Assembly (NCBI GenBank): GCA_964035575.1
Contig: OZ037835.1
Span: forward strand, 1,550,001 to 1,614,000
Direction of reading: 5' to 3'
From: Rhynchopus sp. YZ270_cl-10
Lineage: Eukaryota
Length of the DNA stretch: 64,000 nucleotides
The first letter of the stretch is position 1, and each line of letters opens with the position of its first letter. Shown here piece by piece: positions 852 to 63,362 of this stretch. Both the position numbers and the translations under genes were made by a program. Under the pieces are notes generated by a model. It was not told where the DNA came from. It saw only the letters and a list, made by a program, of their open reading frames with translations, and ran no database searches.

Positions 852-1967
852 GGGGATACGACTCCAGCCATTTTGGCTGGGACCAAACGCACGGAAAATT
901 CATTTGGCATTATCTGGCCATCTCCAAGGCAACTGCGGGTGAAAAACACCCTCAGAGTGGGTCACAGGGGGCCTGTGGGTCGAAAAACGACCCAGAAGCC
1001 ACCCCAGAATACAAAAAAATGGAAAAAAATAGTGAAAAAACGGCTTTTTTCACGTTTTGGCCACTTTGGGCAAAATAGCGATTTTTCGAGAAAAAAATCA
1101 AAAACCGGGATATTTTTTGACATCACAAAGCCTCCTTTGGCACAAATATACCCCAAAAGTGGCCTGTGAGTCCATTCCAACCTGTTTTGGACATATTTGA
1201 CACTTTTGGAAGTGTTTTTTTGGTGTTTTTAGGTCAAAAAAATGCCCAAGACGTCCCCAAGACATCCCCAAGACACTTTGCACACCCCCTGTTACGGTCA
1301 TATTTTTTTCGTTTTTTTGCCTGAAACCCCCAAAATACCCCTCCCGGACCCCACATAGTCCCGAATATCCATCACACACCCACTCAGAGTGAGTAGAAGC
1401 ACCCCAAAAAAAATATTTTTTTTGGGGTGCTTCTACTCACTCTGAGTGGGTGTGTGATGGATATTCGGGACTATGTGGGGTCCGGGAGGGGTATTTTGGG
1501 GGTTTCAGGCAAAAAAACGAAAAAAATATGACCGTAACAGGGGGTGTGCAAAGTGTCTTGGGGATGTCTTGGGGACGTCTTGGGCATTTTTTTGACCTAA
1601 AAACACCAAAAAAACACTTCCAAAAGTGTCAAATATGTCCAAAACAGGTTGGAATGGACTCACAGGCCACTTTTGGGGTATATTTGTGCCAAAGGAGGCT
1701 TTGTGATGTTAAAAAATATCCCGGTTTTTGATTTTTTTCTCGAAAAATCGCTATTTTGCCCAAAGTGGCCAAAACGTGAAAAAAGCCGTTTTTTCACTAT
1801 TTTTTTCCATTTTTTTGTATTCTGGGGTGGCTTCTGGGTCGTTTTTCGACCCACAGGCCCCCTGTGACCCACTCTGAGGGTGTTTTTCACCCGCAGTTGC
1901 CTTGGAGATGACCAGATAATGCCAAATGAATTTTCCGTGCGCAAAAAATGGCTGGAGTCGTACCCCC
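852..1967. mobile_element. Foldback element: ~1.1-kb near-perfect palindrome with no spacer (centre 1414/1415)
   Basis: Mirror ORFs 1098-1379(-) and 1450-1731(+) are identical; ends GGGG(A/G)TACGACTCCAGCC; TA plus poly-C on both flanks. Confidence 0.85.
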
Positions 1968-2634: not shown

Positions 2635-2656
2635 ACCCCCCCCCCCCCCCCCCCTA

Positions 2657-3571
2657 GGCATAGGTGCCCGCCGAGTCGTTTTTGGGCGAGTTGTCGGAAC
2701 TTTACGATTTCACCTAACAACTCGCCCAAAAACTCGGACAACTCGGCCACAACTCGCCCTATACTCGGCACAACTCGCCCTATACTCGGCACAACTCGGC
2801 CACAACTCGGCCACAACTCGCCCATTTTTACAGGCAAAAACATACAGGGATGGGAGGTGACGTTGTAAGGTTACACACATGTAACGTTGGTACAACACAT
2901 AATCTCAAGAAAAACAACCAGGGCTAAGGCCAAACGCCACTCATTACATGCACCTTGTCATATGACTAGTCATAGGTGGTAACTAGGTCGTGGTGGTCCA
3001 TGGGCCACCGTGCACACTCACGGTTTTTGGTAATTGCTGGGGGGAATGGGATATACTCCGTACATGGATACCCACACAGAACACACGGTTCCCCAGACAT
3101 CTGTCAGGCAATCACTGATTCACTTCACACAGGTCGGGCAGGCGCTGCCTGCCCATCCTCTTTTCCTGTCTGCTATCGATTCCAGGTTCACAACGTTCAC
3201 ACGTTTAGTCAAAATGCTTTGGGCGACGACTTCCTTTGGGATACACAAAACCACACAAAGCGCACATTCACAGACCAGCTGTGAAGCGTGGGATGCACAA
3301 GATAAAACGTGATGTGGTGTACCTGTGTACCTGTGTACCTGTGTACCTGTGTACCTGTGTACCTGTGTACCTGTGTACCTGTGTACCTGTGTACCTGTGT
3401 ACCTGTGTACCTGTGTACCTGTGTACCTGTGTACCTGTGTACCTGTGTACCTGTGTTTTTGTAGCCATAAAAAATCCCAAAAAAAAACAACTCGCCCAAA
3501 AAAAATGGGCGAGTTGTTGGCCGAATTTGGGCGAGTTGCCGAGTTGTTTTAACTCGCCGGGCACCTATGCC
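2657..3571. mobile_element. Non-autonomous TIR element (GGCATAGGTGCCCG), subterminal CAACTCG repeats, internal (TACCTGTG)n at ~3317-3456
   Basis: Inverted ends with TA on both flanks; repeated caactcg/cgagttg motifs near both ends. Confidence 0.75.
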
Positions 3572-3573
3572 TA

Positions 3574-4165
3574 GGTGGGGGCAAAACCTTCAGGACGGGT
3601 GAGGCATTTTGACTTTTTTGGACTTCCGCGCAAAGTACCCACAAACCACCCCTCATACCCACCCAGAAATGGGTCAGAAACACCCTGTGACCCGAAAATC
3701 CATGCTAAGGGCGACTCAGAATATGAAAAAATGCAAAAAAATAGTGAAAAAGTGGCCTTTTGACGGTTTTGGCCATGTTGGGTAAAATGGCCATTTTTGG
3801 ACAAAAAAATCAAAAAAACAGCAAAATTTCGACGTCATGACAGCTGCTTGGGCACAAACCTACCCCAGGGAGGTCCTGTGAGTCCATTCCGACCTGTTTT
3901 GGACACTTTAGGTACTTTTTTTGGCCGTTTTTTGGTGTTTTTAGGTCAAAAAATACCCTGGACTTTACCCTGGACGTCCCTGGGCCGCGACTTGCGCCCT
4001 GCTTTTGGACCCACTCTGGGCCAAAAAATGGGTGAAAACCCCCGAAAAAGCACTCCGGGAACCCAGATAGTTCCAAATATCCACCAGAAACCCACCCAAA
4101 CACCTCAAAAACATGCCAGAAAAATATTTTCAAAAACACACTTTTTTCAAAAAGTTCATCTGGGC
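3574..4165 (+). repeat. Single diverged arm related to the 852-1967 / 22834-24410 foldback family
   Basis: Shares aaaaatagtgaaaaa, gtgagtccattcc, cccagatagttccaaat and aaaacacacttttttcaaaa blocks with those elements. Confidence 0.6.
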
Positions 4166-4509
4166 AGGTTGGGGGGTTGGGAGGTTGGTGGTTACCTGTT
4201 TGATTGTTGATTGTTGAATGTCCATGCACTGTAAAAATTTATTTAAAAAAAAAGGAGGAGATGGGGGGGTGATTTCTGTTTTTGTTGATTTCATGATGAT
4301 TTGGGTCCCTCACCCCCTTTGTAAAAATCCCGCCCATACACATATGCAGGAGTCAAGTGACTGACGTGTCTGACTAGTGCCATTGAACACTCTCTTCGGA
4401 GTCCTCTTTGGTTGCCTCTGTGTCACTGGCCTCAGCAAGAGCCTCCTCAGGAACTTCATCCTCCCCAAACACGGACATCCATGACAGGACAAAAAAAAAA
4501 AAAATAATA

Positions 4510-6366
4510 ATGGGAATTGATCATGAAACAGTGCGGGTGGTGGGGAACATCATAGGTCGCAACAGAGTCCAGCTAGGACTGTCGATGCGTGACTGCGAAG
4601 AGATCGGAAAATTGGTGAAAGCTGAGACCGGGGCGTCAATGGGCCTAGCGTACAAGACGTTGCAGCAGCGGGAGAAGCCGTTTAAGGATAAGGCAGAGGC
4701 TCAGGTAGGTGATGTGCAGAAATCGCTCTCTTTGCTTCTGAAGTATTTCCCCCTGCGACTGGGCGGTGACTTCCCGACCATTATCATCACGTGGGATGGG
4801 TATTCACCGTACAGTGCCTTCAGGTCCCAACTTGCACGGAAGAGGCTTGCAGTTGCTGCGACGAACGGGCTTGAAGCGACAAACTTTTTGACGGTCGCTG
4901 ACAAAAAAAAATCCACCTTCCACGACTGGTGGGTTTTTACCTTTCTGCCACAGCTCTCAAACGTTCAAGAGCGCATCCTCAGGAAGGGAGGCTTCGAATT
5001 TTCCCTCCTGTACTACAAAATCGGGGGAGATCATGCCGAGTTGGCAAGTCTCTTCAAAGGTGTCGGCCCCGGGGGACATAGAAGTGCGTTCTGTGCGACC
5101 GACCTGGACGACAGATTGTCTGCCCTGCACAACTGCACCCGCTTGAGCCTTCAAGAAATGGACGCCTGTGGATTCGAGTGCAGCATTGCCGGGCGATTCG
5201 AGCAACCTTGTTACACGCTAACTCCGATGCTGCATGATACCAAGGGGGTGATGCGTTTGCTCATTAAAACCATACCGGGTGCCCGCGACGTAGAAACAAA
5301 GATCCTTGGTAAGCAGGACGGCAATATGACAGGCACGCAGTCACGAACTATCCTACGCAGCCTCATTCAGGAAAATGAGGGGAGCAAACTAATATTGTGC
5401 CAGGCCATGCAGGGCCTTTACTACTTTCGGTATAGTGACATACCAGTGAGGTTCTTCCACACACCAAACCCAAACCCGAACGAGTCGAGGCCATACGCAA
5501 AAGATTACTTGTTCGCATTACTGTGTTACCACCTTACCGTGTATTTGCTTGAATGGGCGAATCCAGGGGTTACGAAAAGCACGTACATGCACTCAGTCGA
5601 ACATTGGTTCGATGAAGAAGACGCACACAGAGTGACCGTGTCGGACGAACTGTTCGAGCATGCCAATGGGGAGAGGAAGCGTTGGACGGCATGCACCTCC
5701 CCAAATACAATGGAACGCGATTTCTTGGCATTCGAAATTGAAACTAAACATGGAGTGCCGATGTCACCACTGGGCCCCCTAACGGACGCGCTTCCCGCAC
5801 TTTGGGAGTTTGATACGTTGTGGCTGTGCAAATGCATAACAGTAGTAGATGAGACTTGGAAAACCGCGTGCACTAACTTGGTGCAGCGACTGCAACGTGC
5901 TGGACTGGGAAAACACATAAAACGCCGAACAGGGTGGGGGCAAAAATTCTTGTCCAACCCTGATGATGAGGGTAGGGTGAAGAAGATTTGCGTGTGTAAG
6001 GAGCCATCATGGAGGGTACCCCCTGTTGTGGAAAGCAAATCAGAACCAGAACCAGAATCAGAATCAGAGGATGCGGGCGAAGGCTATATATGCACCATCT
6101 GTACCAGACTTGGAACACAAACAAATTTCAATACCGCGCACAAGCTCTATTGTCACTACGACGCAAATCACCGCCCTTCAATTACTTGTGCATGCAGGCA
6201 GGAATGCCCCATATGCGAACGCAATGTTTCCAAGCGAGGTTTTAGCCAGCATCTTTTGTGTAATCACTCAGAGGATATTTCCAAGAAACATTGTCCCATT
6301 TGTATGGACGTGTTTTCCTCACCGAGAGCCGTAGAAAATCATATGTACAACATGCACGGAGAGTAG
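4510..6366 (+). CDS. RAG1/Transib/Chapaev-like DDE transposase with three C-terminal C2H2 zinc fingers (618 aa from ATG 4510)
   Basis: Ordered motifs TWDGYS, IGGDHAELASLFKG..HRSAFC, PMLHDTKG, MTGTQSRTIL, TYMHSVEH and SDELFEHAN parallel RAG1 CDGM, GYDEK..CTLC, ALHCDIG, MNGNFARKL, YFHKTLAH and SEGNESGN. Fingers CTIC..H..H and two CPIC..H..H. Confidence 0.7.
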   Translation: MGIDHETVRVVGNIIGRNRVQLGLSMRDCEEIGKLVKAETGASMGLAYKTLQQREKPFKDKAEAQVGDVQKSLSLLLKYFPLRLGGDFPTIIITWDGYSPYSAFRSQLARKRLAVAATNGLEATNFLTVADKKKSTFHDWWVFTFLPQLSNVQERILRKGGFEFSLLYYKIGGDHAELASLFKGVGPGGHRSAFCATDLDDRLSALHNCTRLSLQEMDACGFECSIAGRFEQPCYTLTPMLHDTKGVMRLLIKTIPGARDVETKILGKQDGNMTGTQSRTILRSLIQENEGSKLILCQAMQGLYYFRYSDIPVRFFHTPNPNPNESRPYAKDYLFALLCYHLTVYLLEWANPGVTKSTYMHSVEHWFDEEDAHRVTVSDELFEHANGERKRWTACTSPNTMERDFLAFEIETKHGVPMSPLGPLTDALPALWEFDTLWLCKCITVVDETWKTACTNLVQRLQRAGLGKHIKRRTGWGQKFLSNPDDEGRVKKICVCKEPSWRVPPVVESKSEPEPESESEDAGEGYICTICTRLGTQTNFNTAHKLYCHYDANHRPSITCACRQECPICERNVSKRGFSQHLLCNHSEDISKKHCPICMDVFSSPRAVENHMYNMHGE

Positions 6367-6598: not shown

Positions 6599-7612
6599 AT
6601 GACAAGCAAGCAGACGACGATTGCAAACGACTTTTGTACTGTTTATGTGTACAAAGCGAAGAACCCCGCCAGTGCAACCCCCTTAAGTCACCCTGCACTG
6701 AGGGCCTTGATTTCGAAATGTTTCAAGGTGGACTTCAAGTCCAATGATGGCTCAGTGGCAGCTGAACTTGGCAAAAAATTTGCCATCACACAGGCGAAGA
6801 ACAGGGCAGAGGCTGATGCTGCCAAAGGTGTGTACAGCCTCCGCATCTCCGGGAACGGAGGGGCAGTGAAGGAGACTGTGTTTGGCGGACTCGTGCTGCG
6901 GAAGTTGCCTGGGATATCGGACGCCGCAAAGAAGACGGAGGCGTACAAGCGTCTGGCGCTTGTAGTTCGGGAAGGGGCGTCGCTGGGGGACATGGACATG
7001 GCGTGCTTGTACACGTCCATTGTCAACGAGGGAACAGGGACAGCGGCGGCCAAGGGGGTCATCAAAAGAGGCCCCCGCGCTTCCGTATGGCCTATCATCA
7101 CGGTGATGGGGGAAAAGATGACACCGGGTGGAAAAGTGCACCGAATTTTTATTGAAAACGGTTGCACCGTGTTTTGCACCGACCCGACGCTGCAGGGTCA
7201 CAAGCTGAGCTTTGCGTTGAAGCGGGAGCGCCTTGCCATCGGGGCCAGCATCGGGGTGGTCGACGGTACGTATGATGTCCCCAGCACTCTGTCCCTTGAT
7301 TCGACGAGGGAGACTTCCGTGATGGTGCAGGTGGGAATTACTCGTGTGGACATACCCGTGGGGGCCCCCAACGCACTCTCTGTGAAAATGGACGGGGCAT
7401 CATGGATGTCCGTGTTTGGGGAGGACGAAGTTCCTGAGGAGGCTCCTGAGGATCCTGAGGAGACTCTTGCTGAGGCCAGTGACAGAGGCAAACAAGGAGG
7501 ACTCCGAAGAGAGTGTTCAATGGCACTAGTCAGGCACGTCAGTCACTTGACCCCTGCATATGTGTATGGGCGGGATTTTTACAAAGGGGGTGAGGGACCC
7601 AAATCATCATGA
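6599..7612 (+). CDS. Transposon-associated hypothetical protein; C-terminal half resembles the RPA70 N-terminal OB fold, followed by an acidic tail
   Basis: Open 337-aa frame (ATG 6599). VWPIITVMG..HRIFIENG..L..LAIGASIGV..PVGAP is patterned like RPA1 N-domain PILQVIN..RYRLLMSDG..KIGNP. Confidence 0.5.
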   Translation: MTSKQTTIANDFCTVYVYKAKNPASATPLSHPALRALISKCFKVDFKSNDGSVAAELGKKFAITQAKNRAEADAAKGVYSLRISGNGGAVKETVFGGLVLRKLPGISDAAKKTEAYKRLALVVREGASLGDMDMACLYTSIVNEGTGTAAAKGVIKRGPRASVWPIITVMGEKMTPGGKVHRIFIENGCTVFCTDPTLQGHKLSFALKRERLAIGASIGVVDGTYDVPSTLSLDSTRETSVMVQVGITRVDIPVGAPNALSVKMDGASWMSVFGEDEVPEEAPEDPEETLAEASDRGKQGGLRRECSMALVRHVSHLTPAYVYGRDFYKGGEGPKSS

Positions 7613-7949
7613 AATCAACAAAAACAGAAATCACCCCCCCATCTCCTCCTTTTTTTTTAAATAAATTTTTACAGTGCATGGACATTCAACAATCAACAAT
7701 CAAACAGGTAACCACCAACCTCCCAACCCCCCAACCTCCCACATTTCCAATAAAAATGGCTGTTGCAAGGCATTTCACATGCATAAGGTTGTCAAATGAC
7801 AACCTATAGGTTGTCATTTGACAACCTCAGGTTGTCATTTGACAACCCCTAGGTTGTCACTGACAACCTATAGGGTTGTCATAATTATGACATGTCATTG
7901 AGGTTGTCATTTAGGTTGTCATTTTGCTGACTACCGCACCGTGCACCTA

Positions 7950-10900
7950 CACGACGGACTAGTTATGGCCATGACAGGTGATATGACAGGTGGTGTTACT
8001 AGTTATAAATATGACAGGTGATAATTGAATATTACTAGTAATATGACAGGTGGTACCTGTAAAATGACAGGTGCACCTGTCATTTTGACAGGTGGTACCT
8101 GTCAAATGACAGGTGGTACCTGTCAAAATGACAGGTACCACCTGTCATATGACAGGTGTTTTTGCCGGTGGCTATTGCCTCCCAGGGAAAGGGACTCTCG
8201 AATTTTTTTTTTTGCCCCCTTTTAGGGCGAATTTCGACGATTTGAGGCCATTAAAAGCAAAATTTGACACTTTTGAGCATCTATGGGGGTCTATAACGCG
8301 ATTTTGCGCACCCGATTTTTCGTGGGATTTACGAAAGACAAGTCAATTTTTGACCCCAAAAAAATTCACAAAATTGCCCTCGGTGGTCCTCACCCCCACA
8401 CGTCCTCAATACTGGGCGAAAAAATGCAAAAAAATGCAAAAAAAAACGCAAAAATCGGGTGTTTGACCATCTGGGTGCACCAAATACACGGGAGTGCGGT
8501 ACTAAGCCATAATCAGTCTTTCCGCGCTGAAGAATCCGATGAAGAATTCTTCATTGGAAAAAAATAAAAATACAAATAAAAAAATTGAAGAGGTGGGGTG
8601 GGGCCCGAAGGGCCGCCCACCTCTTTCATCTTCCTCCCAGCCTCCTCGCCCGAGCCATCTGCCGACTATTTCCTTCCGTTGCAACCCGACCTCGGAGATG
8701 ACAAGGAGTGGGGAGAAGCTCCTGGTGGATCCGGCGAAGCCGGGGACAAGCAGAGAGGAGATGAAGACGCAACTGAAGAAGGAGTACGGGATAATGCGAG
8801 TTTGTGCGACTCGCCTTCTGACCCCCTGTTTCGTCTTGCGAAGATGAGCGGGAATTTTCGTGATTGAAGTTGGTGAAGACACGTCTCCGCTCACAAGTTG
8901 TCGACGAACCCCTTGATGCACTCTTGCATGCCAAGAACCATCCCGCGAGTACCTCAGTGAGGAGGTGTCCGCAGAGCTTCTGCATCTCTTTGAATATCAT
9001 AAAGATCCACCCCACCCACCACCGTGCGAAAGCTCGGACCCTTTTTAGGCCAGGAATTCTAGTTTCTCCGCCGGAGGCCCAGAACTTCCGGCGCGCTACG
9101 CGCGCCGGGCTCGGGACGTATTTACCTTTTATGCACAAAATCACTATTCTTCATCAAAAATCCCGCTGCATTTTTTACAATGTACCCTAATTTTTTTTCG
9201 CCTGCGGCGCCGCACGTAGCGCGCCCGGGTTTGGGACCCCTTCTTGAATTTCGAGGGGGCGGTTCACGTTACAGTGGGTCCAGAATCGTAGTTCAATTTA
9301 ACCCCGCTAAGTAACTCGACCAAAACGTGTATCAGCCAAGAACTTGTCCATTTTTTTCAAAATGACCCCGTTACAGTGAGGGTAAAAGTTTGCGGAGATG
9401 CTCGGAAAACCCGAAAAAGGCCAAAAATCCCCCCAAAAGGGAAAAACGAGAACATGTTTCGGCAGGGGGGCAGCGTGTTCTCAGAAAAATCCAAAAATCA
9501 CCTGAAATCCTTATAAAAAACCTGGTGCCCGATCCAAAAAAATGGAAAAAGCCCGGGTGCCCGCCCACCCCTGCAAAAATCGACTTGTACAGCCATTGCT
9601 TTGGTGTGGGCTTGTTCACACCGGGCAGAGTGCGAGTTATTCTCAGCAACACGGCCCCGCCCGGCCCCCCAGATTTTTCCCGTAAGAAAACTACCTGCGC
9701 GAACCAGGCATTTTTTGTCCTCCCTCAAGTGCTCCCTCGAACCTGGCGGGAGGGAGGGAAATAGCTATTTACTGACGCAGTGGTGGGTTTGTACGTCCAA
9801 TGATGTTCTCGTACCTGGAGAGTGGACCGAGTGCGAGGTATGTTTTTAACCCCCGGTTTTCACCACCCCCGCTCCCCCTTTTCGACATTGTCCCGCTCTG
9901 GATGTACGTCTCGTCTCCGGATGTAAATTGAAGCTATTTTTTCCCGCCCAAATTAGCGACTACCAAGATTTGTGCTCCTCTATCTATCTCTTGTTGGGTG
10001 TCCGCCCCGGTACAGCCGGTCATGTACCAAGGTACACTGTTCACGAGAGGGTTTTGTATTTCAAGTCATTGACTCAACTTCTTTTTTTTTGTTAGTAACG
10101 TCACTTTTGTCCTCAATTTCTCTTAACAGGTACCCGAACCGACGACCCTTCATTGTGACAGCGAAGCAGTGCCGACGGACGAGCTGGTGCAAATATTTCA
10201 AAATCAGGTGGCGACCGAGACCACCCCAATTATTATGAAACTCTTAGTCAGTCACTGCTATAGCCATTTAACCCAGGGAGCATAGCTAGTGCAAGAAATT
10301 CGACTTCGGGATCCGGAAAGTCTGTCCTCTGCTTGCGGAGGACTAGGCACAAGAAAATATTGCGTTCCCCCAGAAACCAATTTTTGTCACAGTAATTTTT
10401 GCCCAGGGCATGCTCTTGAAGCATGGCGGCTTGGTGTGAGAAGGGGCAGTGTGTTGTTTTGTTCTAGATTTCAACGGTTGTTAGAACGAGTCAAGTGGAT
10501 GCTTATCTAAACACTGACTTTAGTACAGACCCGAGAGATCACACATGACTTTGAGGAAAGAACAAAGCAATGCATCTGTACCCGCACGCCAGGTTGTAGT
10601 TACTTCAGAATTTTCTTAAGTTTGCGCGAAAGAGAGCGGGGGCAACTCCTTTGTATCATAAGCCCGCTGTGCAGAACAAAGCGAGGAACCTTAAAACACT
10701 ACCTGCGTGGTGGCTGAATTCACATCCCTTAGAATTACCAGAATTCAGCCTTTGTTGAAGTAACGTACATACTTGTATGTGCGTGTCACGCTTCTCCATC
10801 CTTAAATGGGTGCACTGCTTCACTGCAGCGGGTAAGCCTCTCTCGACTAGTGCAAACTTAAGAATTTTCTGCTGGAACTTACCAAAATCGATTTTCTTTC

Positions 10901-11431
10901 ACCCCAAACACCCGCAACACCCCACCTGCTACTTTGGTAGCCTGTGTTGTTGGGAGTTGGTTCTCATGTTGATCCCCAGTGTTTTGCACTGCTTCTTCTG
11001 AGCCCAACGCTGTTTGGCCTGTCGACGTAATAAATACGAAGACAGGGCGGCGGTGCCAACAATTTTCCGATGATGTAACGTTTATCTGATTGATTTATCG
11101 TTTGATATACCTTGTGTCCTACTTCATGCACACCCAAGAAAGGTTATTGAACGGTACTTTCAAGCGATACTTCGTTATGTCATTGGGGGTACCTGGGTAC
11201 CTGGGTACCTGGGTACCTGGGTACCTGGGTACCTGGGTACCTGGGTACCTGGGTACCTGGGTACCTGGGTACCTGGGTACCTGGGTACCTGGGTACCTGG
11301 GTACCTGGGTACCTGGTGCCTGTATTTTGACAGGTGGTACCTGTCAAAATGACAGGTACCACCTGTCAAAAAATTTCACCTGTCATTTTACTAGTAAGAT
11401 CACCTGTCATGGTCATAACTAGTCCGTCGTG
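7950..11431. mobile_element. Non-autonomous CAC-ended element G (TIR CACGACGGACTAGTTATG), subterminal ATGACAGGTG repeats, (GGGTACCT)n at ~11187-11316
   Basis: Inverted ends; TA at 7948-7949 and 11432-11433. Confidence 0.75.
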
Positions 11432-20046: not shown

Positions 20047-22794
20047 CACCGTGCGCTGGTCAGAGGTCTGACCAGGTAATACCTGGTCAGATTTATGACC
20101 AGGTACACCTGGTCAGATCTGACCAGGTACACCTGGTCATGACCAGGTATACCTGGTCATGACCAGGTGTACCTGGTCAGATGACCAGGTACCTGGTCAC
20201 ATTTACCCAGGTAAGTACCCAGGCGCCCAGGTGACCAGGTACCCAGGTACCCAGGTACCCAGGTACCCAGGTACCCAGGTACCCAGGTACCCAGGTACCC
20301 AGGTACCCAGGTACCCAGGTACCCAGGTACCCAGGTACCCAGGTACCCAGGTACCCAGGTACCCAGGTACCCAGGTACCCAGGTACCCAGGTACCCAGGT
20401 ACCCAGGTACCCAGGTACCCAGGTACCCAGGTACCCAGGTACCCAGGTACCCAGGTACCCAGGTACCCAGGTACCCAGGTACCCAGGTACCCAGGTACCC
20501 AGGTACCCAGGTCCAGGTCCAGGAACAGGTACCCAGGAACAAGAAAAAAGTCGTGAAAGAGCAACCACAGCTCCACATGACAAACACAAAAGTGTCCAGT
20601 CACGTGGGGCATTCATGCACTGAGGAGATAATGATCCAACAATTTACAAGAAAGATTACTTAACCTACTGCTGGAAATTGCCAGGTCGTAGTAACACACA
20701 AAGTGTGCCTCCGTTCGGGAAGACCGGATATTCTAGAGACCAAAAAGGCCTCAAGAATATCTTCCGGTAGTCAAGGTAGAACCGAGTGAACGGCCCAAGA
20801 CCCCCGTGGAGAAGTTAAATGTTGTAATGCTATCAGGTAGAAACTGCGAACACTGTCTTACCCTCCTCAATGCATGGTGGTTGATGTCTTCCACAACAAA
20901 TTTCCTGTACCCAGGTACCCAGGTTCCCAGACCCACGCAGTACCACGTCGCAGTACTACGCAAAATTTACCACCAGACCCTGTCTTCGTGCACCTGAAGT
21001 ACAACGCCGCAGACAGGCCAAACATGCGTTGGACTCAGAGGAATGCCCGCTGTGCAGGTATCATGAGAACCAACTCCCAGCAACAAGGGGCGCCTTTTGG
21101 CGGGCGTTGTTGAGGGTGTTTGGGGTGCAAAGTTTTCCACAATTTTGATGCGCGGGTACAGAAGTGTTGTCTTGTTCTTTCATCTCTAGGAATGTAAATG
21201 TCAATCGCGTTTAACTACCACGAGGGCTTGTTCAGTGAACCCACAAGGGGTCGAAGGGGGTTGGTTATCCCATATCTATCAAAGGTTGTGTCGACCAGGC
21301 TAAACCACTATGTTACGCTGTACGTTGTTAAATCCGAAGAAATAACACTTTAGCAGCCGCAGGAAGTTTGCTAAAAAGAGTGCCTCACGCTACACAAACC
21401 ACCACCCGCGATTGACTTAGATGTTATAACAAAGAGAATTCAGAACAAAACAACACCCTGCCCCATACACACTAAATTGTCATGCTTCAAGAGCATGCCT
21501 GGGCCAAAATTACTGTTGACAAAAAAGGCAACAAGACCACCCATAAGGAGTGTGAAATGTGCACTGGTTTTCTGGGGGAACGCAATATTTTCTTGTGTCT
21601 AGTCCTCCGCAAGCAGAGGACAGACTTTCCGGAAGGTTTCCAAAGTCGAATTTCTTGCACTAGCTATGCTCCCTGGGTTAAATGGCAATAGCAGTGACTG
21701 ACAAAATATTCCCACCCCCCAGGTCTTCGTCCACAAACCCAGAATAGATTGATGTGGGTGAAGCCTTTCGGATTTTTGAGTTGTTGATAGAATGTCGAAG
21801 AGCGGCGAAACTTCTCATCGCAATCACGGATGCAGTTCAGATTTCACGATCCTGTGATGAGTGTAAATGTGGGGTGTGATTAAGTTATGGTGTATAAACG
21901 CAGTACTGTAAAATCGTTTAATTTGTCACCTACAATTCTTCCGTCCCTAATACAGAAAGTATCACTCAAGGCTGTACTTTAAAAAGTAGACACAAAAAAT
22001 CGCCCGACGTAATGTGAGGGGGTGACAAAATTCATTTATGACTGATATTTCAACTCGGTTAATTAGGGTGTGACAAATTAAACGATTTTCCAGTATTAAA
22101 GATGAGGTTAATGAAGAAAGTGGTAATAACTATGCATTGCCGTGAAATAAGGTAGCCTTTTTTTCACGCCACAGCGGATTTCCTGCTGCACTAATGGTTC
22201 CCAAGCGAAGCGAGGGGACCATGTATAAGTATTTACCGAGCGAAGCGAGGTGAATATTATGTGCAGCAGGTAACGAGCACGCCTGCAGAAGTTAAAAAAC
22301 GGCTGCCTCATGACAAGCAATATGTAAGTTTATTCCGATTACACAAAGTAGGGGTAGTCTGCAAGCACCAGCCAAAAAAGAGTGAGATCGGTGATCAGGG
22401 AAAACAAACACCACCACACAACAACTTGACAACCACTAAAGGAATGAATCTACACTAGTGCCTGACAGTTAAACATATTTACATACCTTGTCTTCATCGT
22501 AACCTGCGCCTTCGCTGCTGTCAAGGTGCCTTCTCTGGGTACAGTGCCCAGTGTCCAGTACAGAAAAAAAAATTCGTCTAAAAAATCGAGTACGCAAAAC
22601 CACATTTTAGACATTTTAGACCCCTACAGAGGCTCAAAAGTGCCAAATTTTGCTTTTATGGCCTCAAATCGTAAAAATTAGCTACTACAGTACACGGGGT
22701 ATGACCGTATTTTGGCTGAAATTTTGACTTGAAAATTTTTTTCAACATTTGCCCAATCTGAGGTTTTCTTTGGATTTTTTGGGCCATTTTATGA
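20047..22794 (-). repeat. Inverted, one-ended duplicate of the right part of element F (25045-27552), with expanded (CCAGGTAC)n at ~20235-20512
   Basis: Mirror ORFs (20751-20963 vs 26872-27084; 22261-22458 vs 25381-25578) are identical. Confidence 0.9.
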
Positions 22795-24450: not shown

Positions 24451-27400
24451 CACCGTGCGCTGGTCAGAGGATACCTGGTCAGTTGACCAGGTAATATGAC
24501 CAGGTTTTGACCTGGTCAGATTGACCAGGTACACCTGGTCATGACCAGGTATACCTGGTCAATGACCAGGTATTGACCAGGTATACCTGGTCATGACCAG
24601 GTATACCTGGTCAGTGACCAGGTATTTGGCCACTGTGACCAGGTTTTTTTTTTTTTTTGACAACACAAAAATGCCCTTGGTGGGTCCATATGACCTCAAA
24701 ACTGGGCTAAAAGTGCAAATAAAGGCACTTACGAGCAGTTTAGAGCATCTAGAATTTATTCCACGGCTATTAGTGTGCACCCTGTACATTTTGTATGGGC
24801 ATCACCTTAGCAAAAAATCGAAAAATCTCAAAAAAAAAAAAATTTTTTTCGGGAAAAATTTGGCCTCTGGGTTGGGTCTTGGGGCACCGAAAAATGCAAA
24901 AAAACGCAAAATTCGGGTGTTTTGACCATCTGGGGTTTCACCAAATACACGTATTTGAACAATCCTACACTAAACAGTGGTTAGACAAGGCGATTTTTGA
25001 CCAAAGAAAAAATAACTTTTTTGCCCAAAACTGGCCGTGGTAGGTCATAAAATGGCCCAAAAAATCCAAAGAAAACCTCAGATTGGGCAAATGTTGAAAA
25101 AAATTTTCAAGTCAAAATTTCAGCCAAAATACGGTCATACCCCGTGTACTGTAGTAGCTAATTTTTACGATTTGAGGCCATAAAAGCAAAATTTGGCACT
25201 TTTGAGCCTCTGTAGGGGTCTAAAATGTCTAAAATGTGGTTTTGCGTACTCGATTTTTTAGACGAATTTTTTTTTCTGTACTGGACACTGGGCACTGTAC
25301 CCAGAGAAGGCACCTTGACAGCAGCGAAGGCGCAGGTTACGATGAAGACAAGGTATGTAAATATGTTTAACTGTCAGGCACTAGTGTAGATTCATTCCTT
25401 TAGTGGTTGTCAAGTTGTTGTGTGGTGGTGTTTGTTTTCCCTGATCACCGATCTCACTCTTTTTTGGCTGGTGCTTGCAGACTACCCCTACTTTGTGTAA
25501 TCGGAATAAACTTACATATTGCTTGTCATGAGGCAGCCGTTTTTTAACTTCTGCAGGCGTGCTCGTTACCTGCTGCACATAATATTCACCTCGCTTCGCT
25601 CGGTAAATACTTATACATGGCCCCCTCGCTTCGCTTGGGAACCATTAGTGCAGCAGGAAATCCGCTGTGGCGTGAAAAAAAGGCTACCTTATTTCACGGC
25701 AATGCATAGTTATTACCACTTTCTTCATTAACCTCATCTTTAATGCTGGAAAATCGTTTAATTTGTCACACTCTAATTAACCGAGTTGAAATATCAGTCA
25801 TAAATGAATTTTGTCACCCCCTCACATTACGTTGGGCGATTTTTTGTGTCTACTTTTTAAAGTACAGCCTTGAGTGATACTGTATTAGGGACGGAAGAAT
25901 TGTAGGTGACAAATTAAACGATTTTACAGTACTGCGTTTATACACCATAACTTAATCACACCCCACATTTACACTCATCACAGGATCGTGAAATCTGAAC
26001 TGCATCCGTGATTGCGATGAGAAGTTTCGCCGCTCTTCGACATTCTATCAACAACTCAAAAATCCGAAAGGCTTCACCCACATCAATCTATTCTGGGTTT
26101 GTGGACGAAGACCTGGGGGGTGGGAATATTTTGTCAGTCACTGCTATTGCCATTTAACCCAGGGAGCATAGCTAGTGCAAGAAATTCGACTTTGGAAACC
26201 TTCCGGAAAGTCTGTCCTCTGCTTGCGGAGGACTAGACACAAGAAAATATTGCGTTCCCCCAGAAAACCAGTGCACATTTCACACTCCTTATGGGTGGTC
26301 TTGTTGCCTTTTTTGTCAACAGTAATTTTGGCCCAGGCATGCTCTTGAAGCATGACAATTTAGTGTGTATGGGGCAGGGTGTTGTTTTGTTCTGAATTCT
26401 CTTTGTTATAACATCTAAGTCAATCGCGGGTGGTGGTTTGTGTAGCGTGAGGCACTCTTTTTAGCAAACTTCCTGCGGCTGCTAAAGTGTTATTTCTTCG
26501 GATTTAACAACGTACAGCGTAACATAGTGGTTTAGCCTGGTCGACACAACCTTTGATAGATATGGGATAACCAACCCCCTTCGACCCCTTGTGGGTTCAC
26601 TGAACAAGCCCTCGTGGTAGTTAAACGCGATTGACATTTACATTCCTAGAGATGAAAGAACAAGACAACACTTCTGTACCCGCGCATCAAAATTGTGGAA
26701 AACTTTGCACCCCAAACACCCTCAACAACGCCCGCCAAAAGGCGCCCCTTGTTGCTGGGAGTTGGTTCTCATGATACCTGCACAGCGGGCATTCCTCTGA
26801 GTCCAACGCATGTTTGGCCTGTCTGCGGCGTTGTACTTCAGGTGCACGAAGACAGGGTCTGGTGGTAAATTTTGCGTAGTACTGCGACGTGGTACTGCGT
26901 GGGTCTGGGAACCTGGGTACCTGGGTACAGGAAATTTGTTGTGGAAGACATCAACCACCATGCATTGAGGAGGGTAAGACAGTGTTCGCAGTTTCTACCT
27001 GATAGCATTACAACATTTAACTTCTCCACGGGGGTCTTGGGCCGTTCACTCGGTTCTACCTTGACTACCGGAAGATATTCTTGAGGCCTTTTTGGTCTCT
27101 AGAATATCCGGTCTTCCCGAACGGAGGCACACTTTGTGTGTTACTACGACCTGGCAATTTCCAGCAGTAGGTTAAGTAATCTTTCTTGTAAATTGTTGGA
27201 TCATTATCTCCTCAGTGCATGAATGCCCCACGTGACTGGACACTTTTGTGTTTGTCATGTGGAGCTGTGGTTGCTCTTTCACGACTTTTTTCTTGTTCCT
27301 GGGTACCTGTTCCTGGACCTGGACCTGGGTACCTGGGTACCTGGGTACCTGGTCATAAATCTGACCACCTGGGCGCCTGGGTACTTACCTGGGTAAATGT

Positions 27401-27552
27401 GACCAGGTACCTGGTCATCTGACCAGGTACACCTGGTCATGACCAGGTATACCTGGTCATGACCAGGTGTACCTGGTCAGATCTGACCAGGTGTACCTGG
27501 TCATAAATCTGACCAGGTATTACCTGGTCAGACCTCTGACCAGCGCACGGTG
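24451..27552. mobile_element. Non-autonomous CAC-ended element F (TIR CACCGTGCGCTGGTCAGAGG), subterminal TGACCAGG repeats
   Basis: 20-bp perfect inverted ends; TA at 24449-24450 and 27553-27554. Confidence 0.75.
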
Positions 27553-27922: not shown

Positions 27923-28075
27923 CACGGTGGACTCTTTCTGGAAAAGGGCAACTCAGAAAGAGGTCCAACAAGAGAGAGTGCTAACTCCCCTTTCACTCCC
28001 GACAGTGGTAGTTGATACTCCCCCTTTTTGGAACTACGGAATAAAGTTGACCTTTTCCAGAAAGAGTCCACCGTG
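27923..28075. mobile_element. 153-bp MITE, ~31-bp TIR CACGGTGGACTCTTTCTGGAAAAGG, CA on both flanks; paralogous copy at 32939-33091
   Basis: Inverted ends seen directly; 2-bp direct repeat CA at 27921-27922 and 28076-28077. Confidence 0.75.
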
Positions 28076-28454
28076 CATGAAGCACGGTTGTTTTAATGGG
28101 GCAGGGGGGGTCAATTTGTCCCCCAGAATCTGGGGTTTTTACAGGCGGAAGGAAGTCGTAGCCTGCCTGTTGTGGTGAAGCAGGGTTCGTTCCCCGTGTG
28201 GGAAACACGGTCTGCTCAGCACTCAGAAGCTACCTCCATAAAGGCCGTTAGCCCGGTCTTGTTCGGTCTTGAAAGCCGTGTGCACGCAAAATAGCGTGCC
28301 GACACTCCACTGTGGGGTGTTCGTGTGTAGAGAAATGATGTCTTCCAGCGGTGTGCAGCTCGAGGAGTTCTTGCGCTGCTCCGCTGTTGCATGTGTGTTC
28401 TTCGTCCTCTCTCGTTGCAACCTCCTCACAGAAGCAGCAACACACAAACACACA

Positions 28455-30131
28455 ATGTCGAAGAAGCGGCACGCAGACAGCACGCAGGACGAGAACCCAC
28501 CAAAGAGAAGACAGCTTTCTGCAGACCAGGTCTTGGTGGAGGCTGTCAGTACTGTCAATACGACTGCTGTGCGGGCGGTCCTTAAGAAAAGTCCACACAG
28601 AAAAACAATGGCCTTCGATGTTGTGCGAGAGGCATGCAGAAGGAACGACGATGAAAGCCTCGTACTGCTTCTTCCGTATGTTGAGACAACGCAGATGGAC
28701 TTTGGGATCCTGCTGAGTGAGTGTGTCCACGCAGACCACGTTGCGTGCACGGAGGTCCTCTTGCAGCATTGGAAGTCTGTCTGCAAGAACACAGCGTTTG
28801 TCCCGCACGAGTCCAAGGGCAACGCAGGTCAGTATGGCTGTCCGGCCATGTGGTCAGACCCTGCAGTGTGTCGTGTCTTGATTGATGCAGGGGCAGACTT
28901 ACATACAAAAAACGAGAAGCAACATTTGCCTCTGCACTATGCTTGCAAAAAAGGAGCACTTGACGTTGTGAAGATGTTGGTGGTTGCAGCAGGTGCGGGA
29001 ACACAGAAGTTCAGAGTCAGAGATGACGAAGGGGAGACATGTCTTTCCATTGCGGCAAAATTTGAGAACACCAAGACTGTGCGCTATCTTGTGGGCTTGC
29101 CAGAGGTGGATGTGAATTACGCGGATAAGTACAACTACACTGCGTTGCAAGCAGCGGTGTGTGATGGGGCAACCGACTCGGTGCAGGTGCTGATTGATGC
29201 GGGTGCAGACATCAACATACTGAACTACGACGGACATTCGCTTCTGCACGATGCTTGTGAATTTGGATCACTCGAAATTGTGAAGATATTGGTCAGTGTG
29301 GGTGCGGGAGTGCGTGTCACAAATGGCGAAAGGCACACGTGTCTTCACGCTGCGGCAGAAGCTGGACACACCGAGATTGTGCGCTATCTTGTGAGCTTGC
29401 CAGATGTCGATGTGAATCAAGAAACTGTAGATAGCTACACTGCGTTGCACCGTGCGGTGATGCATGTAGAACGAGACGTGGTGCAGGTGCTGATTGATGC
29501 AGGTGCAGACATCGACATACAGAACAACGAGGGACGTTCGCCCCTGCTCTCTGCTTGCGTTGAAGGAACATTTGACACGGTGAAGATGTTGGTCAGAGCA
29601 GGTGCGGAAGTGCGTGCCACAGATGACGAAGGGGTCACGTGTCTTCACTATGCCGCACGTCGTCGAGACACCGAGACTGTGCGCTATCTTGTGGGCTTGC
29701 CAGAGGTTGATGTGAATTACGGAGATGCTCACAATCACACTGCGTTGCACCGTGCGGCACTGAATGCGGACACAGACGTGGTGCAGGTGCTGATTGATGC
29801 AGGTGCAGACATCGACACACAGAACAGCGAGGAGGGACGTTCGCCTCTGCACTCTGCTTGCGTTAGAGGAGCACTTGGCGTTGTGAAGATGTTGGTCAGA
29901 GCAGGTGCGGGAGTGCGTGCCACAAGCGAAAACGGGGACACGTGTCTTATCCTTGCAGCATATTTTGGACACACCGAAACTGTGCGCTATCTTGTGGGCT
30001 TCCCAGAGGTGGAACTGAACTACCGAGACACTGAAAACAACTACACTGCGTTGCAGTATGCGATGGAGGGAAAGCACACAGACGTTGCACAGGTGTTGAT
30101 GGACGCACTGTATGTTGCTATTGGAGTTTGA
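28455..30131 (+). CDS. Ankyrin-repeat protein, array copy 1 (558 aa)
   Basis: Repeated SPLH.AC..G..DVVKMLV.AGA / TCL..AA..GHTETVRYLV / TALH.AV motifs; shared N-terminus MSKKRH..PPKRR (NLS-like). Confidence 0.9.
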   Translation: MSKKRHADSTQDENPPKRRQLSADQVLVEAVSTVNTTAVRAVLKKSPHRKTMAFDVVREACRRNDDESLVLLLPYVETTQMDFGILLSECVHADHVACTEVLLQHWKSVCKNTAFVPHESKGNAGQYGCPAMWSDPAVCRVLIDAGADLHTKNEKQHLPLHYACKKGALDVVKMLVVAAGAGTQKFRVRDDEGETCLSIAAKFENTKTVRYLVGLPEVDVNYADKYNYTALQAAVCDGATDSVQVLIDAGADINILNYDGHSLLHDACEFGSLEIVKILVSVGAGVRVTNGERHTCLHAAAEAGHTEIVRYLVSLPDVDVNQETVDSYTALHRAVMHVERDVVQVLIDAGADIDIQNNEGRSPLLSACVEGTFDTVKMLVRAGAEVRATDDEGVTCLHYAARRRDTETVRYLVGLPEVDVNYGDAHNHTALHRAALNADTDVVQVLIDAGADIDTQNSEEGRSPLHSACVRGALGVVKMLVRAGAGVRATSENGDTCLILAAYFGHTETVRYLVGFPEVELNYRDTENNYTALQYAMEGKHTDVAQVLMDALYVAIGV

Positions 30132-30679
30132 GACATGCTCACGTACCTCGTGACTTCGACTCTCAGATGCGTCTGTTAGCTGCGCTGGAGGTGGTGTTTC
30201 AGTTGCATGGTAGTCAAAACAGGTTTTATTCTCCACACCGTCACACCTTCAGGAAAAATATCATTTTCTTTATTTTCTTCCAGACACACTGGGTTTTTTG
30301 TTTCTTCGCTAATTATTTTTATCAATAATGTTTTCCCCCCACCTTCGCCAGAAACGTTTTGATGTCATGACTGTAACTTCTTGTACTGAGGAAAGGGTTT
30401 CGCTTACTAGAGAGAGCCCAGTGCAGGAAGGGCTTGACCGTGGAAAAAGCAGGAGAAAAAGGGTTTGTTTGCTTCTTGATGTACGTTACCATCCCACGTC
30501 ATCACGTTTTTGATTGGGGCGAAATGAACGGACCTTTTCGTGCGGAGCGCGAATGACTTTTGTTGTCACCGTTTTGGACATACCTTTATATCTTCACAGT
30601 TTTGGGGGAAAAGGGTTCTCTCATGACCGTCCTCTCTCGTTGCAACCTCCTCACAGAAGCAGCAACACACAAACACACA

Positions 30680-32362
30680 ATGTCGAAGAAGCGGCACGCA
30701 GACAGCACGCAGGACGAGAACCCACCAAAGAGAAGACAGCTTTCTGCAGACCAGGTCTTGGTGGAGGCTGTCAGTACTGTCAATACGACTGCTGTGCGTG
30801 CGGTCCTTAAGAAAAGGCCATACGGAAAAACAATGGCCTTCGATGTTGTGCGAGAGGCATGCAGAAGGAACGACGATGAAAGCCTCGTACTGCTGCTTCC
30901 GTATGTTGAGACAACGCAGATGGACTTTGGGATCCTGCTGAGTGAGTGTGTCCACGCAGACCACGTTGCGTGCACGGAGGTCCTCTTGCAGCATTGGAAG
31001 TCAGTCTGCAAGAACACAGCCTTTGTCCCGCACGGCGCAGGTGAGCACTCGTTTTCTATAGATTTTGATTGTCCGGCCATGTGGTCAGACCCTGCAGTGT
31101 GTCGTGTCTTGATTGATGCAGGGGCAGACTTACATACAAAGAACGAGAAGCAACATTTGCCTCTGCACTATGCTTGCAGTGAAGGAGCACTTGGCGTTGT
31201 GAAGATGTTGGTTGCAGCAGGTGCGGGAACACAGAATTTCAAAGTCGCAGATGACGAAGGGGAGACATGTCTTTCCATTGCGGCAAAATTTGAGAACACC
31301 AAGACTGTGCGCTATCTTGTGGGCTTGCCAGAGGTGGATGTGAATTACGCGGATAAGTACAACTACACTGCATTGCAAGCAGCGGTGCGTGAGAAGGCAA
31401 CAGACGTGGTGCAGGTGCTGATTGATGCCGGTGCAGACATCAACATACTGAACAACTACGGACATTCGCTTCTGCACGATGCTTGTGAATTTGGATCACT
31501 CGAAATTGTGAAGATGTTGGTCAGTGTGGGTGCGGGAGTGCGTGTCACAAATGGCGAAAGGCACACGTGTCTTCACGCTGCGGCAGAAGCTGGACACACC
31601 GAGATTGTGCGCTATCTTGTGAGCTTGCCAGATGTCGATGTGAATCAAGAAACTGTAGATAGCTACACTGCGTTGCACCGTGCGGTGATACATGTAGAAC
31701 GAGACGTGGTGCAGGTGCTGATTGATGCAGGTGCAGACATCGACACACAGAACAACGAGGGACGTTCGCCCCTGCTCTCTGCTTGCGTTGAAGGAACATT
31801 TGACACGGTGAAGATGTTGGTCAGAGCAGGTGCGGAAGTGCGTGCCACAGATGACGAAGGGGTCACGTGTCTTCACTATGCCGCATGTCGTCGTGGACAC
31901 ACCGAGACTGTGCGCTATCTTGTGGGCTTGCCAGAGGTTGATGTGAATCACAGAGATGCTCACAATCACACTGCGTTGCACCGTGCGGCGCTGAATGCGA
32001 ACACATACGCAGTGCAGGTGCTGATTGATGCAGGTGCAGACATCAACACACAGAACAGCGAGGAGGGACGTTCGCCTCTGCACTCTGCTTGCGCTTCAGG
32101 AGCACTTGGCGTTGTGAAGATGTTGGTCAGAGCAGGTGCGGGAGTGCGTGCCACAAGCGACGACGGGGACACGTGTCTTATACTTGCAGCAGTTTTTGGA
32201 CACACCGAGATTGTCGCTTATCTTGTGGGCTTGCCTGAGGTGGAACTGAATCACCGAGACACTGAAAACAACTACACTGCGTTACAGTATGCGGTGCAGG
32301 AAAAGCACACAGGAGTTGCACAGGTGTTGATGGATGCACTGTATGTTGTGTTTGGAGTTTGA
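30680..32362 (+). CDS. Ankyrin-repeat protein, array copy 2 (560 aa)
   Basis: Paralog of 28455-30131, open frame. Confidence 0.9.
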   Translation: MSKKRHADSTQDENPPKRRQLSADQVLVEAVSTVNTTAVRAVLKKRPYGKTMAFDVVREACRRNDDESLVLLLPYVETTQMDFGILLSECVHADHVACTEVLLQHWKSVCKNTAFVPHGAGEHSFSIDFDCPAMWSDPAVCRVLIDAGADLHTKNEKQHLPLHYACSEGALGVVKMLVAAGAGTQNFKVADDEGETCLSIAAKFENTKTVRYLVGLPEVDVNYADKYNYTALQAAVREKATDVVQVLIDAGADINILNNYGHSLLHDACEFGSLEIVKMLVSVGAGVRVTNGERHTCLHAAAEAGHTEIVRYLVSLPDVDVNQETVDSYTALHRAVIHVERDVVQVLIDAGADIDTQNNEGRSPLLSACVEGTFDTVKMLVRAGAEVRATDDEGVTCLHYAACRRGHTETVRYLVGLPEVDVNHRDAHNHTALHRAALNANTYAVQVLIDAGADINTQNSEEGRSPLHSACASGALGVVKMLVRAGAGVRATSDDGDTCLILAAVFGHTEIVAYLVGLPEVELNHRDTENNYTALQYAVQEKHTGVAQVLMDALYVVFGV

Positions 32363-34648: not shown

Positions 34649-34810
34649 GACATGCTCACGTACCTCGTGACTTGGACTCTCAGATGCGTGTGTTAGCTGC
34701 ACTAGGTGGTGGTGTTTCAGTTGCATGGTAGTTTTATCAAAACAGATTTTATTCTCCACACCGTAGCACATTCAGGAAAAGTATCATTTCTCTATTTATT
34801 TTGTACGAGT

Positions 34811-49420: not shown

Positions 49421-49457
49421 GGGAAGAAGGACGGCGGCGGGGGGCAGCCTCGACGCG

Positions 49458-53212: not shown

Positions 53213-53224
53213 CGGTGTGGTGCG

Positions 53225-63323: not shown

Positions 63324-63362
<39 letters not shown>

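What the first reader, a model, noticed from the sequence alone, without database searches (positions are those of the whole stretch)
4510..6366. Intact RAG1/Transib-like transposase with a C2H2 finger tail in a protist-like genome
Seen: D (codon 4795, TWDGYS), D (5029, IGGDH), LH (5233), MTGTQSR, YMHSVEH (5590, 5602) and E (5656, SDELFEHAN) in RAG1 order; second D to E spacing is 209 aa. The first Zn-ligand Cys position is Ser (AGT, one base from TGT). Known: RAG1 uses D600/D708/E962 plus a C2H2 Zn site, and Transib, Chapaev and EnSpm transposases share this core. Inference: a divergent lineage of the RAG1-related clade with added DNA-binding fingers.
Basis: partly seen in the sequence, partly recalled or inferred. 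Interest (0 to 1): 0.8.

Follow-up and report, generated by a model that had tools for sequence, protein, structure and literature searches.

The report
RAG1-fold two-gene transposon, likely diplonemid
This gene is the intact cutting enzyme of a multi-copy, two-gene jumping DNA element in a single-celled eukaryote (likely a diplonemid); its predicted fold matches RAG1, the enzyme that rearranges antibody genes, but it likely belongs to an undescribed side branch of that enzyme group rather than to RAG's direct line.

Summary
ORF 4510-6366 (618 aa) has D96, D174 and E383 (spacing 209), conserved across its family. A confident model (pLDDT 92) matches RAG1 (Z 17.4) and HzTransib (15.3), but also P-element transposase (14.0).

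The gene lies in a larger element with a second, unknown 310-aa gene and long inverted repeats. The right end is at 7943 (5'-CACGGTG); other copies have different flanks there in 4 of 4 runs. Near-identical copies lie on at least 12 contigs. This copy lacks its left end.

The Ser at the first zinc-ligand position is family-wide (26 of 35 rows), not a fresh mutation. Named relatives come from the diplonemids Rhynchopus and Lacrimia.

Transib membership is not shown. No duplication could be read for this element, and four neighbouring CAC-ended inverted-repeat pairs show 2-bp flank matches, none 5-bp. No RAG2 features were found.

Verdict: an undescribed lineage of the known CMCT (CACTA-Mirage-Chapaev-Transib) clade, placement unresolved. 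The scan noted similar protist RAG1-like elements on other DNA, but not this family.

The parts
4510..6366 (+). ORF1, 618-aa single-exon DDE transposase (RAG1/Transib-fold core, about residues 5-435)
4795..4797 (+). D96, first predicted catalytic acid, at the end of strand 90-98
   Evidence: D in 29 of 30 rows
5029..5031 (+). D174, second predicted catalytic acid, after strand 168-172
   Evidence: D in 31 of 32 rows
5656..5658 (+). E383, third predicted catalytic acid, in helix 379-395
   Evidence: E in 31 of 31 rows
5083..5094 (+). C(2)C half of the insertion-domain zinc site, here S192-x2-C195; Ser is family-wide, Cys in a sister clade
5590..5604 (+). H(3)H half of the zinc site, H361-x3-H365
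5815..5997 (+). Family-specific module (residues 436-496) with four conserved Cys (C440, C442, C494, C496); likely a further zinc site; not aligned to RAG1 or Transib
   Evidence: (31 of 34, 33 of 33, 31 of 32, 31 of 33 rows)
6091..6357 (+). Three C2H2-type fingers after an acidic, low-confidence linker
6599..7612 (+). ORF2, no relatives found; 337 aa here because 2 bases are absent after 7481, 310 aa in most copies (stop at 7527-7529); acidic tail runs into the right inverted repeat
7400..7943 (.). Right inverted-repeat arm and terminal region; 11 TGACAACC motifs in both orientations at 7787-7921
7937..7943 (-). Element terminus 5'-CACGGTG; right flank begins CA
   Evidence: (depth drop and mixed loose ends behind 7943 in 4 of 4 runs)
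4166..4484 (.). Remnant of the left inverted-repeat arm (312 of 317 aligned bases match the right arm; a 21-base gap); the outer part with the terminus is missing in this copy
3684..4170 (.). Other, high-copy repeat that replaces the left end, overlapping the arm by about 5 bases (not part of the element)

Best explanation
ORF1 is the intact transposase, predicted to have the RAG1/Transib fold, of a multi-copy two-gene cut-and-paste DNA element that likely forms an undescribed lineage of the CMCT clade in diplonemids. Shown: the ORF, the conserved D-D-E and zinc-site residues, ORF2 next to ORF1, the inverted repeats, one sharp end (CACGGTG at 7943) with varied flanks in other copies, and near-identical copies on many contigs. 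Inferred: a transposase dimer would bind the two CAC ends, cut them by nick and hairpin as RAG and HzTransib do, and insert the element with a short stagger, likely a 2-bp TA or CA duplication. The three C2H2 fingers would read the 8-bp TGACAACC subterminal array, in place of the nonamer-binding domain that the protein appears to lack. ORF2 would be an accessory factor or a captured passenger, not RAG2. This copy could supply enzyme but, lacking its left end, likely cannot move itself.
For: Fold: model pLDDT 92.2, pTM 0.90 from 51 rows. Foldseek gives 44 matches at E<=0.001; those listed are RAG1 chains (best 5.7e-6) and HzTransib 6pqr (9.7e-4). VIA-align: RAG1 Z 17.4, rmsd 4.3, 392 aligned; HzTransib Z 15.3, rmsd 4.8, 380 aligned; hAT and ISCth4 only Z 7-8. 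ESM Atlas: RAG1 clusters at 0.93-0.94, 173 of 256 features shared. D-E spacing 209 lies in the Transib range 206-214 (PMC1131882 passage). Mobility: cluster of 19 proteins (15 listed, on 12 distinct contig lengths; the window's exact protein on 7 contigs), 7 full-length ones differing by 0-6 substitutions. ORF2 cluster shares 9 of 12 contig lengths; one run contig spans 4494-7815. End: depth falls from about 6000 to about 50 after 7945 in X1, with 4-6 unlike contigs leaving at 7943 in 4 of 4 runs. Short duplication: of 10 clean CAC..GTG pairs in the window, 5 (4 loci) have a 2-bp flank match, 1 a 6-bp match, 4 none, and none 3-5 bp; the flanks seen for this element begin TA or CA. CMCT definition: PMC12730594 passages.
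Against: No copy with both ends could be fetched, so the duplication of this element was not read; the 2-bp figure comes from neighbouring elements whose transposase is unknown, and 3 of the 4 dinucleotides (CG, TA, TA) are self-complementary and could be part of the repeat. P-element transposase scores Z 14.0 (rmsd 6.2, 335 aligned), close to BbRAG1L 13.9, so the fold does not fix the lineage. No sequence or Pfam match links the core to any named transposase. Two of the top three Atlas hits are unnamed clusters. The first zinc Cys is Ser. The copies may come from more than one assembly or haplotype. The host is inferred from named relatives at about 28-46% identity only.
Confidence: 0.66

Rival explanations
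1. It is an ordinary, divergent Transib that makes 5-bp duplications, or a Transib with a changed duplication length.
For: D-E spacing 209 (range in PMC1131882). The model aligns to HzTransib 21-495 over residues 7-435. The end CACGGTG is heptamer-like. One relative, P0049, has a CX2CX3AHX4C tail like the CTT1 knuckle of RAG1L and subgroup I Transib (PMC10462144, PMC9435367). A preprint reports Transibs with 3-bp and TA duplications (10.64898/2026.08.26.747230 passages).
Against: No 5-bp match among the 10 clean CAC-ended pairs. Second gene, long inverted repeats and subterminal arrays. No sequence match to HzTransib or BbRAG1L even with a 29-row profile. A zinc knuckle in 1 of 26 proteins is a common motif.
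Confidence: 0.15
2. It belongs to an already named non-Transib CMCT lineage (ESTA, EnSpm/CACTA, Mirage or Chapaev).
For: CAC termini, C(2)C and H(3-4)H motifs and 2-5 bp duplications are shared by all CMCT lineages; ESTA makes TA duplications and also matches RAG1 by HHpred (PMC12730594). Subterminal motif arrays and a second gene recall CACTA elements (recalled). The family's D-G-Y-N-P, P-x-L-H-x-x-K-G and S-D-E motifs recall CACTA and Chapaev motifs (recalled, not tested).
Against: No Pfam hit to a CACTA-type transposase family among the families shown for 51 rows (first 25 of 75 shown). Named Atlas hits are RAG1 families, with DUF1280 only at rank 14 on 16% of members. Chapaev has 3-4 bp duplications and H(4)H (PMC4079192); this family has H(3)H.
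Confidence: 0.14
3. It is a RAGL transposon and ORF2 is a very divergent RAG2-like partner.
For: Two single-exon genes in the same direction, as in the protist AanRAGL, though there RAG2L lies upstream (PMC9435367). ORF2 has an acidic tail (42% D/E). RAG1 is the best fold match.
Against: ORF2 has no PHD finger, no internal repeat and no Pfam, PDB or Atlas match; its roughly 270-aa core is short for a six-blade kelch domain (size recalled). D-E spacing is 209, not 253, which suggests no RAG2-binding insertion.
Confidence: 0.03
4. It is a domesticated or passively duplicated gene, not a mobile element.
For: The left end is missing in this copy; the first zinc Cys is Ser.
Against: Sharp end with unlike flanks; many near-identical copies, 8 of 15 listed truncated or frameshifted; several divergent multi-copy sister families on long contigs.
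Confidence: 0.02

Closest known systems
CMCT clade of DNA transposons (EnSpm/CACTA, Mirage, Chapaev, Transib, Plavaka, ESTA, Lanisha; PMC12730594)
   Same: [quoted passage not shown]
   Different: First Cys is Ser in most of the family; extra four-Cys module and C2H2 tail; no sequence link to a named lineage; host group not reported in the papers searched.
Transib transposons (HzTransib, PDB 6pqx/6pqn; PMC1131882)
   Same: Fold (Z 15.3, rmsd 4.8, 380 aligned), start at the helical dimerisation domain, D-E spacing 209, CAC heptamer-like end, size near 3-4 kb.
   Different: About 13% identity; second gene; inverted repeats over 300 bp with subterminal arrays; no 5-bp duplication seen in neighbouring elements; C2H2 tail.
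RAG1 and RAGL transposons (mouse RAG1 6xnz; BbRAG1L 6b40; AanRAGL of Aureococcus, PMC9435367)
   Same: Best fold match (Z 17.4, rmsd 4.3, 392 aligned to 459-1001); domain order; two same-strand single-exon genes as in AanRAGL.
   Different: Alignment starts at RAG1 residue 459, so no nonamer-binding domain or N-terminal region; shorter D-E spacing; ORF2 shows no RAG2 features; no 12/23 asymmetry shown.
ESTA (EnSpm-like, TA duplications; rust fungi; PMC12730594)
   Same: RAG1-like by remote comparison, CAC start, and possibly the TA-type 2-bp duplication.
   Different: ESTA-1_PGr is 12 kb and carries a TET/JBP gene; CA flanks also occur here; kinship not tested.

Membership tests
CMCT clade | DDE triad in an RNase H-like fold | tested here: met
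   Conservation, secondary-structure order, fold matches; distances between the acids not measured
CMCT clade | C(2)C and H(3-4)H motifs between second D and E | tested here: met
   H361-x3-H365 and C195 nearly invariant; first Cys is Ser here but Cys in 6 of 35 rows
CMCT clade | 5'-CA..TG-3' termini | tested here: met
   Right end CACGGTG at 7943; left end absent in this copy
CMCT clade | 2-5 bp target duplication | tested here: inconclusive
   No two-ended copy; neighbouring CAC-ended pairs give 2 bp
Transib | Second D to E spacing 206-214 aa | tested here: met
   209 (PMC1131882)
Transib | 5-bp target duplication | tested here: inconclusive
   Not readable for this element; 0 of 10 clean CAC-ended pairs in the window show 5 bp; the feature is reported as labile
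Transib | RSS-like terminal heptamer | tested here: met
   CACGGTG at the mapped end; CAC ends are not unique to Transib
Transib | Transposase groups with Transib in a tree | not testable with these tools
   No Transib or CMC sequence was returned by any search
RAGL transposon | Linked RAG2-like gene (kelch propeller plus PHD) | tested here: not met
   ORF2 has no PHD and no kelch signal by sequence; its fold was not predicted
RAGL transposon | CTT1 zinc knuckle tail | tested here: not met
   C2H2 fingers here; knuckle in 1 of 26 proteins examined, P0049
Chapaev | 3-4 bp duplication and H(4)H motif | tested here: inconclusive
   H(3)H here against H(4)H (PMC4079192); duplication not readable; no 3-4 bp match among neighbours
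ESTA | TA duplication | tested here: inconclusive
   Flanks begin TA or CA; neighbours give TA, TA, CA, CG

The most novel reading that the evidence does not exclude
A deep Discoba lineage, sister to Transib plus RAG1L, that joins a RAG1-type catalytic core to CACTA-type architecture (second gene, subterminal arrays read by captured C2H2 fingers, 2-bp duplication) and runs on a three-ligand zinc site. It would bridge Transib/RAG and the CMC transposons, show a second, RAG2-independent capture of a partner gene, and still be active in a group of cultivable marine protists.
Probability: 0.25. Interest if true: 0.72.

Novelty: new variant of a known kind. Interest (0 to 1): 0.5.

Why it matters
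RAG1-related elements are known from animals, fungi, plants and one stramenopile alga (PMC9435367). The Diplonema genome paper lists TATE, MULE and Helitron elements but no Transib (PMC10161547 passages), and three searches found no report for diplonemids or Euglenozoa. A young family with intact copies in this group would add a deep branch to the tree that orders Transib, RAGL and CMC elements. It also offers natural variants for three open points: what sets duplication length, whether the zinc site tolerates loss of a Cys, and how swapped tails (C2H2 array, CCHC knuckle, none) change end recognition. It is not a RAG1-RAG2 precursor on present evidence.

Tried and rejected
Single-sequence folding failed (pLDDT 35.8). 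Pfam and PDB sequence searches found only the fingers, also with a 29-row profile. A profile search of the large protein set reached no named transposase. No related loci in metagenome, viral or prokaryote contigs, so no flanks could be fetched; no whole genome is held for the window. The viral fold library gave no match at E<=0.001. No RNA holder was listed among the runs; this says nothing on expression. Rejected: that the visible inverted repeat 4163-4484/7400-7740 marks the ends (the unit runs on to 7943); that the Ser is a recent inactivating change; ORF2 as RAG2; CACRGTG enrichment as evidence (33 found, 26.4 expected). Contig depth was not used as a copy number. A search for the HzTransib end sequence in print found nothing. 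The supplement of PMC9435367 held as text had no Euglenozoa or Discoba term, but its figures are not held; bioRxiv supplements were closed, which may bear on the novelty claim.

Full report
Observation. The window holds a stop-free 618-aa ORF at 4510-6366. A full HMMER scan of cluster representatives returned 51 proteins at E<=0.001, 26 of them at 1e-30 or better; the weakest few match only the fingers. In the 51-row alignment A5, D96 is kept in 29 of 30 rows with a residue, D174 in 31 of 32, E383 in 31 of 31, H242 in 32 of 33, H361 in 33 of 33, H365 in 30 of 31 and C195 in 34 of 34.

Fold. Folding without an alignment failed. With A5 the model reached pLDDT 92.2 and pTM 0.90. It shows three N-terminal helices, strands 90-98, 110-118 and 127-133, a helix, a strand ending just before D174, a helical insertion, and E383 in helix 379-395: the order of an RNase H-like DDE domain. 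Foldseek gave 44 matches at E<=0.001; those listed are RAG1 chains (best 5.7e-6) and HzTransib, with BbRAG1L at 1.1e-3. VIA-align on 998 chains gave RAG1 Z 17.4 (rmsd 4.3, 392 aligned, RAG1 459-1001), HzTransib 15.3 (4.8, 380), P-element transposase 14.0 (6.2, 335), BbRAG1L 13.9 (4.7, 378), ISCth4 8.1 and Hermes 7.4. The ESM Atlas placed residues 1-470 beside RAG1 clusters (0.94, 173 of 256 features) and two unnamed eukaryotic clusters with the same score. So the RAG1-like fold is well supported, but it does not choose among the lineages that share it. I could not measure distances in the model.

Zinc sites and tail. Position 192 is Ser in 26 and Cys in 6 of 35 rows. A tree of the 25 rows with at least 300 core residues (26 shorter rows dropped) splits, with 100/100 support, five Cys rows from 20 rows of which 19 have Ser; it is midpoint-rooted for drawing only. 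The Ser is therefore an old, shared state, and the Cys rows confirm that the position is the first of the C(2)C pair. Residues 436-496 form a module with four conserved Cys that aligns to neither RAG1 nor Transib. Tails vary across 26 proteins examined: C2H2 arrays in both main clades, a single Cys/His finger or none in others, and a CX2CX3AHX4C knuckle in P0049, like the CCGHC tail of RAG1L (PMC10462144, passages).

The element. An inverted repeat brackets ORF1 and a second ORF: 4166-4484 matches 7400-7737 at 312 of 317 aligned bases. The unit goes further right. In four runs (at most 4 samples, 2 studies) depth collapses after 7945, and 4-6 contigs per run leave at 7943 into unlike sequence (agreement about 0.5; 11 loose-end rows not shown). 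The end reads CACGGTG, and the last 160 bases hold 11 TGACAACC motifs of the 15 in the window. No second copy of this end is in the window. The left arm stops at another high-copy repeat with about 5 bases of overlap, so this copy has lost its left end. Contigs that share only the terminal 39 bases appear in 3 of 4 runs; they may be the left end or sister families.

Copies and ORF2. The protein's 90% cluster has 19 members; the 15 listed lie on 12 distinct contig lengths up to 2.16 Mb, and the window's exact protein is on 7 contigs. Seven are full length with 0-6 substitutions; eight are truncated or frameshifted. They may come from more than one assembly. ORF2 has a cluster of 14 plus one, sharing 9 of 12 contig lengths with ORF1, and one run contig spans both genes. 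Its usual form is 310 aa; the window lacks 2 bases after 7481 that 3 of 4 runs carry. ORF2 has no relative, Pfam, PDB or Atlas match, no PHD and no internal repeat.

Duplication length. It cannot be read for this copy. A systematic scan found 120 CAC..GTG pairs with at least 17 of 20 matching bases; 10 have boundaries that do not extend outward. Five of these (four loci: 890/1939, 7950/11431, 24451/27552, 27923/28075) have a 2-bp flank match, one a 6-bp match, four none, and none 3-5 bp. Three of the four dinucleotides are self-complementary, and 890/1939 may be a plain palindrome; only CA/CA at 27923/28075, whose ends also start CACGGTG, is a clear direct repeat. The pairs at 7950 and 24451 carry TGAC-type subterminal arrays like this element. 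Flanks seen for this element begin TA or CA. A 2-bp YA duplication is thus likely but indirect.

Host. Named relatives are from Rhynchopus euleeides (three accessions) and Lacrimia lanifica (one), both diplonemids (taxonomy recalled); all others are unnamed. The host is inferred, not shown. No prokaryotic, viral or metagenome locus was found.

Mechanism. By analogy with RAG, BbRAGL and HzTransib, which cut by nick and hairpin (PMC10462144 passage), the enzyme would pair two CAC ends, excise the element and insert it with a short stagger. The alignment starts at RAG1 residue 459, so the nonamer-binding domain appears absent; three fingers would cover about 9 bp, which fits the 8-bp subterminal motif. 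These steps are inferred.

Comparison. PMC12730594 (passages and a supplement search) defines the CMCT clade by C(2)C and H(3-4)H motifs, CA..TG ends and 2-5 bp duplications, and includes ESTA with TA duplications. The element meets the testable criteria. PMC1131882 (passages) gives Transib a 206-214 spacing and 5-bp duplications; the first is met, the second is doubtful. A preprint (10.64898/2026.08.26.747230, passages) reports Transibs with 3-bp and TA duplications, so this feature alone cannot exclude Transib. PMC4079192 (passages) gives Chapaev 3-4 bp and H(4)H. PMC9435367 (whole text) reports a RAGL transposon in the alga Aureococcus and unnamed fragments in other protists. PMC10161547 (passages) lists no Transib for Diplonema papillatum; PMC8101967 (passages) covers Merlin only; PMC4840297 (passages) confirms the weight of the terminal CAC. 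Searches for Transib with diplonem, RAG1-like with Euglenozoa, and Rhynchopus with transposase gave 0 papers each. Repbase was not searchable.

Earlier scan notes. None matched either protein by sequence or this genome. Word searches listed similar RAG1-like or CMCT elements in other protist genomes. One warned that other transposase folds match about as well, which I partly confirmed with the P-element score.

Verdict. A real, young, two-gene CMCT transposon with a RAG1/Transib-fold enzyme, likely an undescribed diplonemid lineage; Transib membership unproven, RAGL membership not met. New variant of a known kind; interest 0.5.

Noticed in passing
window 7950-11431: CACGACGG-ended inverted-repeat pair with TA on both flanks and TGACAGGT subterminal arrays, 6 bases from the element's right end; likely a non-autonomous CMCT element with nested repeats.
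   Followed up: partly
window 24451-27552 and 20047-22794: CACCGTGCGC-ended 3.1-kb element with TA flanks and TGACCAGG arrays, plus an inverted partial copy (98.7% over 2380 bases); its end resembles the element's end; no ORF of 200 aa or more.
   Followed up: partly
window 27923-28075: 153-bp MITE-like element with CACGGTGGACTCTTTCTGGAAAAGG ends and a CA direct flank repeat; a further end at 33091.
   Followed up: partly
window 2655-3575: About 0.9-kb element with TAGGCATAGGTGCCCG ends in C-rich flanks, holding CAACTCGGC repeats and a 10-bp tandem array at about 3317-3456.
   Followed up: no
window 888-1941: Perfect 527-bp palindrome with no spacer, built from the same high-copy repeat family that cuts the element's left end; real or an assembly artefact.
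   Followed up: no
window 53213-58212: Non-LTR retrotransposon reading frames (endonuclease and reverse transcriptase motifs, read by eye) preceded by a GDVEEHPGP 2A-like peptide; upstream ORF 49020-51593 has OTU-like motifs and the element appears to interrupt an LRR gene copy.
   Followed up: no
window 28242-37499 and 44674-63383: Tandem arrays of ankyrin-repeat genes (four copies) and leucine-rich-repeat genes (three to four copies).
   Followed up: no
window 38627-39721: SARAF (PF06682) gene, E 3e-52; could serve to place the host.
   Followed up: partly
proteins P0053/P0091/P0096, P0058/P0098, P0006/P0024: Three further multi-member sister families (about 27-45% identical) on megabase contigs; P0096 shares a contig length with ORF1 copy P0013, so several families likely coexist in one genome.
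   Followed up: partly
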